Positions 29,690-30,466 of a stretch of 64,000 nt of DNA are shown in pieces. The position numbers and the translations under genes were made by a program. Position 1 is the stretch's first letter; every line of letters begins with the position of its first letter. The stretch lies in IMG/VR virus record IMGVR_UViG_2711768056_000005, one strand, 5' to 3'. The notes beneath the pieces were generated by a model that searched no databases, was not told the origin of the DNA, and was given only the letters and a program-made list of their open reading frames with translations. This DNA comes from a virus. Lineage: Duplodnaviria > Heunggongvirae > Uroviricota > Caudoviricetes.

Positions 29690-30466
29690 CGCAACGGAAA
29701 GAGCATTCCTGGTGGACCTGTAGATTGGGATATGAACCCGTTACAGGAGAATGCTCTTACCTGTTACGTGCTCCGTTTCGTGGAGCTAACGGCGGGTGAT
29801 CAGACCGCACCAGACTGGACTTATTTCAGCGTTATGCTCATGCCAGAGAATCAAACTGTGATGGTCGGTGCTGAACTCCGACACAGGGTTGTAGCAAGCC
29901 CCGCAAAGCGCGCACTACTGTAGTTGCGGCACATCAGCCTGTGCATTCACCACAATGTTGAGAACACTGGTTGTCACGCTGCAACGCAACATTTATTCGT
30001 AGATTGGGATATGACCCCGTTACGCCAGTGTTCTCAACGTTGTAGTGCCGGTTACGGTTCCGGCCAGGCCTCTTCCTCAACGGGGTGTTCTCCATACGGA
30101 CTACCGTTTATTGGTCGTTCCTGCGGTTTATGTTGTGAAGCCAGATGCTTATCTTCTGGTTGCTTCAAAGAGCTGCACTTCATCACAACGGTAAGAGCAC
30201 TCGATGCATTTAAGCCAAGCCCCATAAGGGAGAATGCCCTTACCTGTTGTGTTGTGATGACCGGTGCTGATCTCCGGCTTGCGGTTATTTCAGACTCTCA
30301 CGGGCGTTTAATTGCCCCGCCGAACAGCTCTTTTCCGCAATAGCTGCAATGTCTTTCGCGCATCAGCCTGCGCATTCATCACAACGGTAAGGGTACTTCG
30401 TAGGGATTCGAACCCTCTGCCAAGCTCGGCGATCTCCGACGTCGCAAAATACCCTTACCTGTTGTG
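29690..30466 (-). repeat. Array of related long inverted-repeat (hairpin) modules, one with a tRNA T-arm-like core, inside the tRNA operon
   Basis: Arms CACAA(C/T)GGTAAG / CTTACCTGTTGTG at 30379-30394/30450-30466 and 30184-30198/30236-30251; 18-bp arms at 29950-29970/30025-30045; GTAGATTGGGATATGA(A/C)CCCGTTAC at 29720 and 29999; GGGATTCGAACCCT at 30404-30417. No credible minus-strand ORF. Confidence 0.55.

What the first reader, a model, noticed from the sequence alone, without database searches (positions are those of the whole stretch)
29690..30466. Array of long inverted-repeat RNA-like modules inside the tRNA operon, where coding genes were expected
About 800 bp between upl and tRNA-Thr has no credible ORF on the operon strand. 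Instead it holds at least four related modules with 13-18-bp arms enclosing 40-65 nt; one abuts the tRNA-Thr 3' end and contains a tRNA T-arm-like GGTTCGAATCC. Sequence blocks are reused between modules. They would be co-transcribed with three tRNAs from a C1-controlled promoter, so they could be processed small RNAs or tRNA-derived decoys. From memory P1 has protein-coding tciA-C at this position.
Basis: seen in the sequence. Interest (0 to 1): 0.6.

Follow-up and report, generated by a model that had tools for sequence, protein, structure and literature searches.

The report
Structured RNA cassettes beside phage tRNAs
The stretch after the two tRNA genes of this P1-like phage is not protein-coding: it is a chain of conserved, tightly folded RNA hairpin modules, some copying pieces of tRNA, that belong to an undescribed family found next to tRNA genes and terminators in many enterobacterial phages.

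Summary
On the operon (minus) strand, 29565-30908 holds five long-stem hairpins: M0, MA, MB, MC and MD. They alternate with about 100-135-nt units (U1, U3, U4) built on the scaffold of the prophage sRNA STnc100.

The hairpins fold far better than shuffled sequence (z -4.6 to -7.1) and better on the minus strand. Relatives occur in P1-like, lambdoid and Felix O1-like phages. In these, the stems covary while the apical domains stay conserved.

The P1 genes upl and plp are annotated on the opposite strand across this region. They show no coding signature and are probably annotation artefacts. tciA-C lie elsewhere in P1.

MA carries a canonical T-arm stacked on its stem. MC and MD carry a GGG/CCC hairpin with a CAU loop. 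In lambdoid relatives this hairpin is identical over 14 nt to the anticodon stem-loop of E. coli initiator tRNA.

In P1 relatives the hairpins start 1 nt after a tRNA CCA end. In lambdoid phages they start at a terminator U-tract.

My best reading is a polycistronic array of non-coding RNAs, with the hairpins acting as processing or insulating punctuation that also displays tRNA-like domains. The RNA-level structure is shown. The processing enzyme and any decoy function are inferred.

The parts
31274..31319 (-). Pban promoter region with the bivalent C1 operator. This is the start of the operon that would transcribe the array.
   Evidence: Mapped by homology from the P1 reference annotation. 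The operator-like sequence GCTCTAATAAATTT is read at 31300-31287 on the minus strand.
31078..31179 (-). DicF-like region ending in an intrinsic terminator (31113-31094)
   Evidence: P1 reference misc_feature mapped by homology. Terminator scan. No Rfam DicF hit at E<=10.
30900..31043 (-). U0: degenerate U-like unit. Its 5' block resembles the start of U1/U3 and its 3' block resembles the STnc100-like 3' hairpin.
   Evidence: Direct-repeat families D2 and D10. Weak fold, z -1.47.
30823..30907 (-). M0: long-stem hairpin upstream of the tRNAs
   Evidence: Inverted repeat I2. MFE -39.9 kcal/mol, z -4.65. 14 variants across P1-like loci.
30546..30621 (-). tRNA-Asn (GUU)
   Evidence: ARAGORN. Rfam tRNA 74.5 bits.
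30468..30543 (-). tRNA-Thr (UGU)
   Evidence: ARAGORN. Rfam tRNA 72.9 bits.
30380..30466 (-). MA: hairpin that starts 1 nt after the tRNA-Thr CCA end. A canonical T-arm (AGGG-UUCGAAU-CCCU; plus-strand 30404-30414) is stacked directly on the long stem, and an extra 5' hairpin is present.
   Evidence: Inverted repeat I11. MFE -41.6, z -5.98. Sequence read. 60 IMG/VR contigs carry its apical motif.
30251..30385 (-). U1: unit closed by GUUGUGAUGA/UCAUCACAAC, with a 5' hairpin (GCGCAGGCUGAUGCGC) and a 3' hairpin (CCGGAGAUCAGCACCGG). It is 96-98% identical to a unit in lambdoid early-left operons.
   Evidence: Inverted repeat I16. Fold. Lambdoid matches H23-H30 and H52-H64. mEp460 context. Shared scaffold with compensatory changes.
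30180..30254 (-). MB: long-stem hairpin whose apical domain contains GGGGCUUGGCUUAAAUGC
   Evidence: MFE -34.5, z -6.05. At least 120 IMG/VR contigs. Covariation: 90.7% of cells paired against 27-57% when slid, and 12 of 19 stem pairs changed on both sides.
30048..30182 (-). U2: spacer with a U-like 5' end (GUUGUGAUGAAG) but no well-supported fold
   Evidence: z -0.49. Direct-repeat families D1 and D5.
29948..30047 (-). MC: three-way-junction hairpin. P1 is 23 bp or more. P2 (CGUA/UACG) is capped by ACGGG-GUCAUAU-CCCAAUC (plus-strand 30002-30020). P3 is a further hairpin.
   Evidence: Inverted repeat I1. MFE -49.2, z -7.13. Family alignment and pair counts.
29855..29956 (-). U3: U unit with the same closing stem, 5' hairpin and 3' hairpin as U1
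   Evidence: Fold. Alignment A3. Direct-repeat families D2 and D7.
29771..29785 (-). Small hairpin CUCCACGAAACGGAG, which also precedes M hairpins in Klebsiella lambdoid phages
   Evidence: Sequence read. Recurs in the contexts listed.
29690..29768 (-). MD: hairpin with P2 (CCUGUA/UACAGG) capped by ACGGG-UUCAUAU-CCCAAUC (plus-strand 29723-29741). Its 3' arm reads AUGCUCUUUCC, which resembles boxA.
   Evidence: Inverted repeat I6. MFE -35.6, z -5.97. Family data.
29564..29695 (-). U4: STnc100-like unit ending in an intrinsic terminator (hairpin 29580-29594 followed by a U-run)
   Evidence: Rfam RF02076: 37.8 bits, E 7e-6, model positions 31-147 of 206, below the gathering score of 47. Fold z -2.88.
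29594..30343 (+). Two same-frame ORFs that correspond to the P1 annotations upl and plp. I judge them not to be genes.
   Evidence: No Pfam match. Variable sites by codon position are 55/58/67. 11 of 14 distinct indels shift the frame. RefSeq PGAP annotates only tRNA-Thr over identical DNA. The P7 record has no CDS here.

Best explanation
The interval is part of a roughly 1.7-kb untranslated array of structured RNA cassettes in the C1-controlled tRNA/ban operon of a P1-like phage.

Two kinds of cassette alternate with the tRNA genes:
- M hairpins. Each has a 17-27-bp basal stem with a conserved purine-rich 5' strand and a pyrimidine-rich 3' strand. The stem carries an interchangeable, sequence-conserved apical domain.
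- U units. These are STnc100-like sRNA scaffolds closed by GUUGUGRUGA/UCAYCACAAC.

The array is transcribed as one precursor (inferred from the P1 promoter and operator annotation).

The M hairpins work at the RNA level as punctuation. Their long duplexes are cut by a host endonuclease. RNase III is the most likely enzyme, given at least two helical turns of duplex. RNase P-type cleavage at the 5' base is the alternative. The cuts would free the neighbouring tRNAs and U sRNAs and define their ends. The heavy structure would also keep the untranslated transcript from being an easy target for Rho and exonucleases.

The excised apical domains are conserved more strongly than the stems. Two types copy tRNA parts: a T-arm minihelix in MA, and an initiator-type GGG/CCC-CAU anticodon arm in MC and MD. 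They are therefore probably ligands for a tRNA-binding factor, not inert spacers.

Shown: the region is non-coding, the structure is conserved and strand-specific, the architecture is modular, and placement relative to tRNA and terminator ends is fixed.
Inferred: co-transcription, cleavage, the enzyme, and any ligand.
For: Structure:
- Five hairpins fold with z -4.6 to -7.1, and none of 200 shuffles does as well. They are 6-10 kcal/mol more stable on the operon strand.

Covariation:
- ASL-type family (the MC/MD type, named for its anticodon stem-loop-like cap), 39 distinct sequences: 84.5% of cells paired against 42-51% for slid partners. 76 cells changed on both sides against 27.6 in shuffles (0 of 500 shuffles reach this).
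- MB-type family, 30 distinct sequences: 90.7% paired against 27-57% when slid. 12 of 19 stem pairs changed on both sides (0 of 500).
- Felix O1-like copies keep 29-31 of 32 apical nt, counting the 18-nt search key, while about half of the stem positions are replaced compensatorily.

Strand:
- G.U pairs outnumber A.C mismatches 125:44 and 80:15.
- In every tRNA-bearing locus checked, the MB-type motif is on the same strand as the tRNAs.

Non-coding:
-.

Placement:
- M begins 1 nt after CCA at tRNA-Thr->MA, at tRNA-Thr->MB and tRNA-Ser->M in P7, and in other P1-like contigs.
- It begins 4 nt after tRNA-Arg in Klebsiella phage GZ7.
- It ends 3 nt before tRNA-Arg(UCU) in Felix O1-like arrays.
- In lambdoid phages its 5' strand includes the U-tract of the preceding terminator, including the IsrJ terminator of the late operon.

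Modularity:
- The same arms enclose at least 8 different apical domains.
- In relatives, genuine tRNAs (Tyr, Ser, Arg) occupy equivalent slots.
- Deletions run from arm to arm (L027, L065, L022).

U units:
- Rfam STnc100 partial hit for U4.
- Shared closing stem and 3' hairpin, with compensatory changes.

tRNA mimicry:
- The metY sequence shows CGGGCTCATAACCC. This equals the lambdoid M cap.
- The cap is kept in 110 of 122 hits when the search is anchored only on the flanks.
Against: - There are no expression or end-mapping data for these RNAs. The two paper searches aimed at P1 transcription or RNA-seq, and the exact-sequence search, found nothing describing these modules.
- E. coli K-12 prophages lack them, so public K-12 data cannot help.
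- A pure processing signal would not need conserved apical sequences, so punctuation cannot be the whole story.
- An intrinsic terminator lies between Pban and the array, so co-transcription requires readthrough.
- No 3' CCA-like tail follows the hairpins, which argues against classical RNase P recognition.
- The covariation controls do not correct for phylogeny, and many database copies are near-identical. The signal comes from a limited number of lineages.
- U2 and U0 fold no better than shuffles (z -0.5 and -1.5).
Confidence: 0.5

Rival explanations
1. The hairpins are tRNA-fragment mimics whose main job is to act as decoys or sponges for tRNA-binding enzymes. The initiator-type anticodon arm on MC, MD and their lambdoid relatives would bind or be cut by factors specific for tRNA-fMet. 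Examples are VapC/MvpT-type PIN toxins, which cleave the tRNA-fMet anticodon loop, or MetRS, or the 30S P site. This would protect phage translation. It is the same logic as phage tRNA genes that counter anticodon nucleases.
For: - The lambdoid cap has 14-nt identity with the metY anticodon stem-loop.
- The CAU core and the GGG/CCC stem are kept when the search is anchored only on the flanks: 110 of 122 are identical and 121 of 122 keep CAU.
- P1 copies keep N-U-CAU-A-N.
- MA has a canonical T-arm stacked on its stem.
- Apical domains are conserved more than stems.
- The modules always sit in phage tRNA clusters or operon leaders.
- The same 19-nt cap sits on unrelated long stems in an Acidobacteriaceae genome and a gammaproteobacterial MAG.
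Against: - Only two of at least eight apical types look like tRNA parts.
- The stem next to the cap has only 3 pairs followed by an internal loop, not the 5-bp anticodon stem.
- P1's own copies differ from tRNA-fMet at positions 32 and 38. Position 38 flanks the VapC cleavage site.
- There is no evidence for any partner, and no linkage to a toxin was tested.
- The target specificity of VapC is recalled from the literature, not tested here.
Confidence: 0.15
2. The hairpins are cis-acting elements that keep RNA polymerase elongating through a long untranslated, terminator-containing leader. This would be nut/rrn-boxA-like or put-like processive antitermination, or simple anti-Rho structure. It would allow downstream genes such as ban, or lambdoid early-left and late genes, to be expressed.
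For: - The 3' arms carry boxA-like sequences. MD and many lambdoid copies read UGCUCUUU, the rrn boxA core as recalled. MB reads GCUCUUAC, the lambda nutR boxA as recalled.
- Half of the distinct MB-type sequences keep a U.U mismatch that preserves UGCUCUUU at the cost of a base pair (pair 14-64: 15 of 30 unpaired).
- The elements lie in untranslated leaders that contain intrinsic terminators, upstream of protein genes. This holds for P1, for the mEp460 leader of the early-left operon (the counterpart of lambda's PL operon), and for lambdoid late operons after the antiterminator gene Q.
- Long tRNA arrays are untranslated and would be exposed to Rho.
Against: - The boxA-like octamer is buried in a duplex of 20 bp or more. 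Known boxA sites act single-stranded.
- Many copies sit directly downstream of a terminator, not upstream of it.
- Several copies per operon, and variable apical domains, are not expected for a nut or put site.
- The match to boxA was noticed after the fact, and the consensus sequences are from memory.
Confidence: 0.15
3. The modules are mainly selfish or recombinogenic DNA. In this reading, hairpin-bounded cassettes spread and shuffle among phages through homologous arms, like MITEs or the stem-loop cassettes of T4-type phages. The RNA structure would have little function of its own.
For: - Identical arms enclose different cargos within one genome.
- Arm-to-arm deletions and rearrangements occur, including loss of both tRNAs (L022).
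- The distribution across P1-like, lambdoid and Felix O1-like phages is mosaic, with 96-98% identical blocks.
Against: - Compensatory changes proceed through G.U intermediates. The excess of G.U over A.C and the constant orientation relative to transcription point to selection on the RNA.
- Apical domains are under strong purifying selection.
- No target-site duplications were seen.
- No transposase or recombinase association was seen in the neighbourhoods inspected.
Confidence: 0.1
4. The region encodes the proteins Upl and Plp on the plus strand, as annotated in the P1 reference genome. The inverted repeats would then be incidental.
For: - A 750-nt plus-strand frame (29594-30343) has only one stop codon.
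- P1 and RCS47 records annotate upl and plp here.
Against: - There is no Pfam family.
- Substitutions show no third-position excess: 55/58/67.
- 11 of 14 distinct indels shift the frame, one of them present in 29 alignments.
- Module-sized deletions differ between relatives.
- P1's plp overlaps trnT on the opposite strand.
- P7 and RefSeq PGAP annotate no CDS here.
- The same DNA blocks lie in intergenic tRNA arrays of Felix O1-like phages.
Confidence: 0.03
5. The modules are decayed tRNA pseudogenes with no present function.
For: - T-arm-like and anticodon-arm-like pieces are present.
- The modules sit in slots that hold real tRNAs in relatives.
Against: - ARAGORN and the Rfam tRNA model do not recognise them even at E<=10.
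- Perfect stems of 17-27 bp, covariation and conserved apical domains across phage families are not what decay produces.
Confidence: 0.05

Closest known systems
STnc100 (Rfam RF02076) and the related PasD prophage sRNAs
   Same: - U4 matches the STnc100 model at E 7e-6 over model positions 31-147.
- U1 and U3 share its architecture: an outer closing stem, internal hairpins, and a 3' hairpin abutting the closing stem.
- Like STnc100, they occur in lambdoid prophage operons. STnc100 and PasD are described as prophage-encoded, and PasD as an Hfq-dependent sRNA (bioRxiv 10.64898/2026.05.13.724894; PMC8550237).
   Different: - The score is below Rfam's gathering threshold (37.8 against 47 bits).
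- Only U4 ends in a terminator.
- U1 and U3 are internal units flanked by M hairpins.
- Here several copies sit in tandem inside a tRNA operon.
RNase III processing stems in rRNA and tRNA operons and in phage early transcripts (rrn 16S/23S stems, the metY-nusA-infB site after tRNA-fMet, phage T7 early sites); from established knowledge
   Same: - They are long duplexes of about two helical turns placed between functional RNAs in a polycistronic transcript.
- They are placed directly after a tRNA.
- The stems covary.
   Different: - Known sites enclose the product (rRNA) or are simple hairpins. M hairpins enclose short, sequence-conserved apical domains of several interchangeable types.
- Cleavage has not been demonstrated here.
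Bacterial Y RNAs (YrlA) and other tRNA-like domains mounted on a stem
   Same: A long basal stem carries a tRNA-like module. MA has an acceptor-like stem coaxial with a T-arm.
   Different: - The Rfam YrlA model does not hit any M hairpin. Its only weak hit (25.6 bits) spans the real tRNAs.
- No Ro/Rsr-binding helix was identified.
- Linkage to rsr was not examined.
Anticodon-arm mimicry in regulatory RNAs (the thrS operator that mimics the tRNA-Thr anticodon arm); from established knowledge
   Same: A hairpin reproduces the anticodon stem-loop of one specific tRNA. Here the match to tRNA-fMet is 14 of 14 nt in lambdoid copies.
   Different: - It is not in a translational operator of a synthetase gene.
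- It is carried on a three-way junction inside phage non-coding arrays.
- No binding partner is known.
Spacer-derived RNAs of tRNA operons (3'ETS-leuZ sponge, rtT repeats of the tyrT operon, stable RNA species 1 and 2 of the T4 tRNA cluster); from established knowledge
   Same: They are non-tRNA RNAs co-transcribed with tRNAs and released by tRNA processing. The rtT repeats also reuse tRNA-derived sequence.
   Different: - There is no sequence or Rfam match.
- The long-stem cassette architecture and the spread across phage families are not features of those RNAs.
boxA/nut antitermination sites
   Same: The 3' arms carry UGCUCUUU or GCUCUUAC octamers, and the elements lie in operons that need terminator readthrough.
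   Different: - The octamer is base-paired.
- The order and copy number differ from nut sites.
- No binding test was possible.
HDV-like theta ribozymes placed 3' of phage tRNAs
   Same: A structured RNA sits immediately 3' of a phage tRNA and could define its 3' end.
   Different: - No HDV-like or other ribozyme family matches at E<=10.
- M hairpins are simple long helices with variable caps, not a nested double pseudoknot.

Membership tests
STnc100 (RF02076) | Covariance-model score at or above the Rfam gathering threshold (47 bits) over the full model | tested here: not met
   U4 (29573-29693) scores 37.8 bits with E 7e-6, over model positions 31-147 of 206. The P1 copy scores 33.4 bits. U1 and U3 are not hit.
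STnc100 (RF02076) | Architecture: an outer closing stem enclosing hairpins, with a terminal hairpin abutting the closing stem | tested here: met
   Rfam alignment for U4. Folds of U1, U3 and U4. The six-sequence alignment shows compensatory changes in the closing stem and the 3' hairpin.
tRNA | Cloverleaf recognised by ARAGORN or the Rfam tRNA model | tested here: not met
   Only the three genuine tRNAs are found. No M hairpin is hit even at E<=10.
Protein-coding genes upl/plp (P1 annotation) | Coding signature: excess of third-position substitutions, frame-preserving indels, and a family or homology signal | tested here: not met
   Variable sites by codon position are 55/58/67. 11 of 14 distinct indels shift the frame. 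No Pfam hit. PGAP annotates no CDS over identical DNA.
RNase III substrate | About 20 bp or more of mostly uninterrupted RNA duplex | tested here: met
   Predicted stems are 17-27 bp in the window and up to 25-29 bp in lambdoid copies.
RNase III substrate | Staggered cleavage in the stem, dependent on rnc | not testable with these tools
   No transcript-end data are available. K-12 prophages lack the element.
RNase P substrate (tRNA-like or 4.5S-like) | Acceptor-like stem with a single-stranded 5' leader, and usually a 3' RCCA or CCC tail | tested here: inconclusive
   The stem base lies 1 nt after the upstream CCA, as for a downstream tRNA in an array. MA has a stacked T-arm. However, no CCA-like tail follows the 3' arm.
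YrlA / bacterial Y RNA | Match to the Rfam YrlA model (Ro-binding helix plus tRNA-like domain) | tested here: not met
   There is no hit on any M hairpin. The only weak hit (25.6 bits against a gathering score of 69) covers the tRNA-Asn/Thr genes.
boxA/nut antitermination site | boxA consensus octamer | tested here: met
   UGCUCUUU in MD and in many MB-type and lambdoid copies, and GCUCUUAC in MB. The consensus itself is recalled from memory.
boxA/nut antitermination site | boxA accessible as single-stranded RNA, upstream of the terminators it overrides | tested here: not met
   The octamer is the 3' strand of the basal stem in every fold. Many copies directly follow a terminator.
Self-cleaving ribozymes at tRNA 3' ends (HDV-like, theta, hammerhead) | Match to a ribozyme covariance model or a conserved catalytic core | tested here: not met
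   No ribozyme family appears among the Rfam matches at E<=10 over 28000-32000.
Initiator-tRNA anticodon-arm mimic | GGG/CCC stem adjacent to a 7-nt loop with U33, a CAU anticodon and a purine at position 37 | tested here: met
   Lambdoid copies read CGGGCUCAUAACCC, identical to metY. The window copies read GGG-GUCAUAU-CCC and GGG-UUCAUAU-CCC.
Initiator-tRNA anticodon-arm mimic | Recognition by a factor specific for tRNA-fMet | not testable with these tools

The most novel reading that the evidence does not exclude
The M hairpins are a new class of phage counter-defence or translation-control RNA. In this reading, a stable long-stem scaffold is excised from tRNA operon transcripts and displays tRNA fragments: an initiator-tRNA anticodon arm and a T-arm minihelix. 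These would act as decoys for host tRNA-targeting factors, such as the VapC-type toxins that cut tRNA-fMet. The interchangeable caps would form a shufflable repertoire shared by temperate and virulent enterobacterial phages.
Probability: 0.15. Interest if true: 0.85.

Novelty: new variant of a known kind. Interest (0 to 1): 0.62.

Why it matters
- Annotation. It removes two long-standing P1 gene annotations (upl, plp). It also reinterprets a well-known operon of a model phage as a factory for non-coding RNAs: a DicF-like RNA, STnc100-like units, tRNAs and hairpin cassettes.
- Distribution. The hairpin family is unannotated in Rfam and RefSeq. Yet pieces of this region match 1349 of 5426 complete E. 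coli genomes, and the hairpin types occur in P1-like, lambdoid (including Stx) and Felix O1-like phages. A function would therefore be broadly relevant.
- Testable questions. The fixed 1-nt junction with tRNA 3' ends bears on how phage tRNA arrays are matured. The exact copy of the initiator-tRNA anticodon arm raises the question of whether phages deploy tRNA-fragment mimics alongside their tRNA genes.

Tried and rejected
- Rfam at E<=10 over 28-32 kb found only the three tRNAs, a sub-threshold STnc100 hit and chance matches such as mir-142 on MC and YrlA over the tRNAs.
- A gathering-threshold scan of 12 related loci added only IsrJ and tRNAs.
- Nine paper searches (P1 upl/plp, the ban operon, Stx-phage tRNAs, anticodon mimics, exact motif strings and others) found no description of the M hairpins. 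Two of the nine supplied the STnc100/PasD papers.
- The P1 genome paper is not held in the library.
- E. coli K-12 prophages CPS-53, DLP12 and Qin were fetched in the hope of using K-12 knowledge. None carries an M or U element.
- A brute-force catalogue of inverted repeats over all loci was too noisy to use directly. An arm-anchored catalogue worked.
- A regular expression for U units caught only U1, on both strands.
- I looked for complementarity between the CAU loop and the MB loop or downstream start codons. It was inconsistent, so I dropped it.
- I looked for a D-arm reading of the MB apical domain and found it unconvincing.
- In the GTDB scan, roughly half of the 73 hits outside Enterobacterales are at the level expected by chance for a 17-base pattern in 596 Gb (my own estimate). 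Only those with long flanking stems were kept.
- I did not run the large protein-homology searches. ORF calls on this mobile non-coding DNA would give uninformative 'homologues'.
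Full report
**Identity of the window.** The window is a P1-like phage or plasmid. It is 99.5% identical to phage RCS47 over 29300-31300. The operon of interest runs on the minus strand. By homology with the annotated P1 reference, the order is:
- the C1-controlled Pban promoter and operator at about 31274-31319 (the operator-like sequence is read directly at 31300-31287);
- a 'DicF-like region' ending in an intrinsic terminator at 31113-31094;
- tRNA-Asn (30621-30546) and tRNA-Thr (30543-30468);
- a 78-aa ORF and an SPFH/Band 7 gene;
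- a CAU tRNA at 28467-28392.

**Checking the observation.** The four modules exist where stated.
- The repeat finder reports arms at 29696-29708/29749-29761 (MD), 29948-29970/30025-30047 (MC) and 30386-30398/30447-30459 (MA).
- MB sits at 30183-30251.
- A fifth hairpin, M0 (30827-30844/30886-30903), lies upstream of the tRNAs.
- As RNA on the minus strand they fold to -35 to -49 kcal/mol, with z-scores of -4.65 to -7.13. None of 200 dinucleotide shuffles did as well.
- The plus strand is 6-10 kcal/mol less stable, because several pairs are G.U.
- MA starts one nucleotide after the CCA of tRNA-Thr. It holds AGGG-UUCGAAU-CCCU, whose 3' strand runs straight into the 3' strand of the long stem. 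This is the geometry of a tRNA acceptor/T-arm stack.
- Blocks are reused between modules (families D1-D7).
- No credible minus-strand ORF exists.

- In P1, tciA-C are not here. They lie between this array and trnI, and this phage has an SPFH gene there instead.
- What P1 annotates here are upl and plp, on the opposite strand. They correspond to the window ORFs 29594-29923 and 29924-30343.

**Is the region coding on the plus strand?** The two ORFs share a frame with a single stop codon between them, which needed a test.
- Across 199 alignments to related loci, 180 variable sites split 55/58/67 by codon position.
- 11 of 14 distinct indels shift the frame. One of these occurs in 29 alignments.
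- Neither ORF matches Pfam.
- P7 carries no CDS here.
- RefSeq's PGAP annotates only tRNA-Thr over 100%-identical plasmid DNA.
- P1's plp overlaps trnT on the other strand.
- The same DNA blocks occur in intergenic tRNA arrays of unrelated phages (see below).
I conclude that upl and plp are not genes.

**A second repeated unit.** The spacers between hairpins are themselves related.
- U1 (30385-30251), U3 (29956-29855) and U4 (29695-29564) begin GUUGYGRUGAAUGC and end in a hairpin followed by YCAYCRCA.
- They fold with a 9-10-bp closing stem.
- U4 matches Rfam STnc100 at 37.8 bits (E 7e-6; model positions 31-147 of 206; below the gathering score of 47) and ends in a terminator.
- A six-sequence alignment that includes lambdoid copies shows compensatory changes in the closing stem and in the 3' hairpin.
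- STnc100 is a prophage sRNA recently linked to the Hfq-dependent PasD sRNAs (bioRxiv 10.64898/2026.05.13.724894; PMC8550237).
- U1 is 96-98% identical to a unit in the early-left operons of lambdoid phages such as mEp460 and several Stx phages.
- U2 and U0 look like decayed copies (z -0.5 and -1.5).
- The 3' arm of each M hairpin overlaps the 5' strand of the next U closing stem by the six bases GUUGUG.

**Relatives of the hairpins.** I searched IMG/VR with apical (loop) sequences, so that the stems were free to vary.

*MB-type.*
- The motif GGGGCTTGGCTTAAATGC occurs in at least 120 viral contigs, with 43 distinct hairpins.
- The contexts are of three kinds:
  - directly after the terminator of the lambdoid late operon;
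  - directly after a tRNA CCA end;
  - three nucleotides before tRNA-Arg(UCU) inside arrays of 22-26 tRNAs.
- Those arrays belong to Felix O1-like virulent phages.
- In the Felix O1-like copies the stem reads AACAUUCUAAAGGGUA/UACCCUUUAAAAUGUU instead of CAACAGGUAAGRGC/GCYCUUACCGUUG. The 32-nt apical domain (which includes the 18-nt search key) differs at only one to three positions.
- On 30 distinct sequences, 90.7% of cells pair, against 27-57% when partners are slid.
- 12 of 19 stem pairs change on both sides. None of 500 column shuffles reaches the observed values for these measures.

*MC/MD-type.*
- This type is also abundant (at least 120 contigs, 64 distinct hairpins).
- It is a three-way junction:
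  - P1 is a long basal stem.
  - P2 is a stem that covaries freely (CCGGG/CCCGG, CCUGUA/UACAGG, CGUA/UACG, CACUGAAUA/UAUUCAG, GCGUG/CACGC) and is capped by ACGGG-NUCAUAN-CCCAAUC.
  - P3 is a variable hairpin.
- Pair counts: 84.5% of cells paired against 42-51% when slid, and 76 cells changed on both sides against 27.6 in shuffles (0 of 500). This holds even though nine rows were misaligned on the 3' side.

*Strand of the structure.* G.U pairs outnumber A.C mismatches 125:44 and 80:15. The structure therefore belongs to the operon strand. The controls do not remove phylogenetic relatedness, so these figures are strong support rather than proof.

**tRNA mimicry.**
- The lambdoid cap CGGGCUCAUAACCC is identical to the anticodon stem-loop of E. 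coli initiator tRNA. I verified this on metY.
- The three consecutive G:C pairs next to a CAU loop are the hallmark of initiator tRNAs (established knowledge).
- My first search fixed most of that motif, so I repeated it anchored only on the flanking P1/P2 sequence. 110 of 122 hits keep GGGCTCATAACCC, and 121 of 122 keep CAU.
- The window's own copies read GGG-GUCAUAU-CCC (MC) and GGG-UUCAUAU-CCC (MD). U33, the CAU and A37 are kept, while positions 32 and 38 vary.
- A scan of one genome per species found the complete element in about 30 Enterobacterales species.
- The same 19-nt cap also sits on unrelated long stems in an Acidobacteriaceae genome, in a gammaproteobacterial MAG next to what looks like a phage structural gene (by eye), and inside an unidentified RNA of Saccharibacteria.
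- The remaining hits are at the level I estimate for chance.

**Modularity.**
- Anchoring on the arm core (RAGRGY ... RCYCUY) shows at least eight different apical domains enclosed by essentially the same arms. Two more of these have T-arm-like hairpins.
- In P1 relatives the same array holds real tRNAs in equivalent slots: Tyr in Ro157c2YLVW, Ser(UGA) in P7 and D6, Arg/Tyr/Ser in an IMG/VR contig.
- P7 reads tRNA-Thr-G-MB ... U-GGCC-tRNA-Ser-G-M-U4.
- At every tRNA-to-M junction in P1 relatives the spacer is one nucleotide. For comparison, tRNA-Asn and tRNA-Thr are 2 nt apart.
- In lambdoid phages the 5' strand of P1 includes the U-tract of the preceding terminator. In late operons that terminator belongs to IsrJ.
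- Variants exist in which sequence between two arms is deleted. One has lost both tRNAs (L022).

**How it most likely works.**

*Shown:*
- The region is non-coding.
- It holds two families of conserved, strand-specific RNA structures.
- The hairpins occupy tRNA-like slots with fixed junctions to upstream 3' ends.
- The apical domains are conserved more than the stems.

*Inferred:*
- The whole array is one precursor made from Pban. This requires readthrough of the DicF-like terminator.
- A host endonuclease cuts the 17-27-bp stems. RNase III fits the duplex length and has a precedent in the metY-nusA-infB operon. Cleavage at the 5' base, as for a downstream tRNA by RNase P, fits the 1-nt junction but lacks a CCA-like tail.
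- The cuts release tRNAs and U sRNAs.
- The dense structure also shields about 1.7 kb of untranslated RNA.

Caps are under strong constraint, and two types copy tRNA parts. The excised hairpins probably also bind a tRNA-recognising factor.

I put about 0.9 on 'conserved functional RNA structure, not protein'. I put about 0.4-0.5 on punctuation or processing as the main role.

**Rivals.**
- *Decoy function* for tRNA-fMet-specific factors such as VapC-type toxins. This is attractive but untested, and P1's loops differ at position 38.
- *Antitermination.* This is suggested by boxA-like 3' arms: UGCUCUUU in MD and many lambdoid copies, and GCUCUUAC in MB. Half of the MB-type sequences keep a U.U mismatch that preserves UGCUCUUU. 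However, the octamer is buried in the duplex, and the consensus is from memory.
- *Selfish recombining cassettes.* This explains the mosaicism but not the strand-specific covariation.
- *tRNA pseudogenes and the upl/plp proteins* are essentially excluded.

**Comparison with what is known.**
- U units are STnc100-like, but below Rfam's threshold.
- The M hairpins match no Rfam family.
- They are unannotated in RefSeq.
- Their motif sequences appear in no searchable paper.
- They work like processing stems and resemble stem-mounted tRNA mimics (Y RNAs, the thrS operator), but they fail or cannot be given the membership tests for those families.
- I therefore rate them a new variant of a known kind: a new RNA family within the known category of structured spacer RNAs in tRNA operons. 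A minority possibility is something more novel.

**Limits.**
- There are no expression data.
- K-12 prophages lack the elements.
- Database copies are redundant.
- Several comparisons (boxA, VapC specificity, RNase III precedents) rest on recalled knowledge.

Noticed in passing
window 29690-29768, 30180-30254; A2 columns 56-66: The 3' arms of the hairpins carry boxA-like octamers. MD reads UGCUCUUU, the rrn boxA core. MB reads GCUCUUAC, the lambda nutR boxA. 15 of 30 distinct MB-type relatives keep a U.U mismatch that preserves UGCUCUUU at the cost of a base pair.
   Followed up: partly
window 31078-31179: The region annotated as 'dicF-like' in P1 ends in a strong intrinsic terminator (31113-31094). 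It gets no Rfam DicF hit at E<=10. This terminator lies between Pban and everything downstream, so the array and ban need readthrough.
   Followed up: no
window 28495-29539: P1 has tciA-tciB-tciC between this array and trnI. This phage, like RCS47, instead has a 78-aa hydrophobic ORF plus an SPFH/Band 7 protein (Pfam E 1e-30). RCS47 annotates the latter as a 'putative serine protease'.
   Followed up: partly
L008 1638-1724 (P7), L007 1638-1724 (D6), L065 3971-4057: P7, D6 and other P1 relatives carry an 87-nt tRNA-Ser(UGA) inside the same array. P1 and this window lack it. Other relatives add tRNA-Tyr or tRNA-Arg(UCU), and one contig (L022) has lost all tRNAs by an arm-to-arm deletion. The D6 record gives these tRNAs the wrong strand.
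   Followed up: partly
L111 3477-3592 and 3234-3323 (Felix O1-like phage): A genuine tRNA-Ser is enclosed by 14-nt complementary arms that extend its acceptor stem. A separate hairpin with 26-nt arms lies between tRNA-Leu and tRNA-Ser. This suggests that long flanking stems are a general feature of phage tRNA arrays.
   Followed up: no
L055 1709-1785, L049 3283-3359, L059 6520-6596: The Rfam sRNA IsrJ sits directly after the Q antiterminator gene and ends in the terminator that the MB-type hairpin follows. IsrJ therefore looks like the short transcript of the lambdoid late promoter in these prophages.
   Followed up: no
L351 about 360-520, L374, L398 (Saccharibacteria); L372 about 2560-2640 (Acidobacteriaceae); L407 about 6010-6060 (gammaproteobacterial MAG): The 19-nt cap ACGGGNUCAUANCCCAAUC also occurs on long, unrelated flanking stems (9-14 bp) far outside Enterobacterales. 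In Saccharibacteria it lies inside an unidentified structured RNA just upstream of a gene that looks like an aspartyl-tRNA synthetase (by eye).
   Followed up: partly
L003 2378-2931 (mEp460_036, mEp460_037): As with P1 upl and plp, the hypothetical proteins annotated on the opposite strand over the M and U modules of the mEp460 early-left leader are probably artefacts. That leader (the counterpart of lambda's PL leader) reads M - U1 - terminator - M(ASL), the same alternation as in P1.
   Followed up: partly
L008 2150-2120 (P7): The P7 copy of MB has UAUAGGG instead of UAUGGGG in the otherwise invariant apical motif. Because of this, my exact-motif scans missed it. The family counts are therefore lower bounds.
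   Followed up: no
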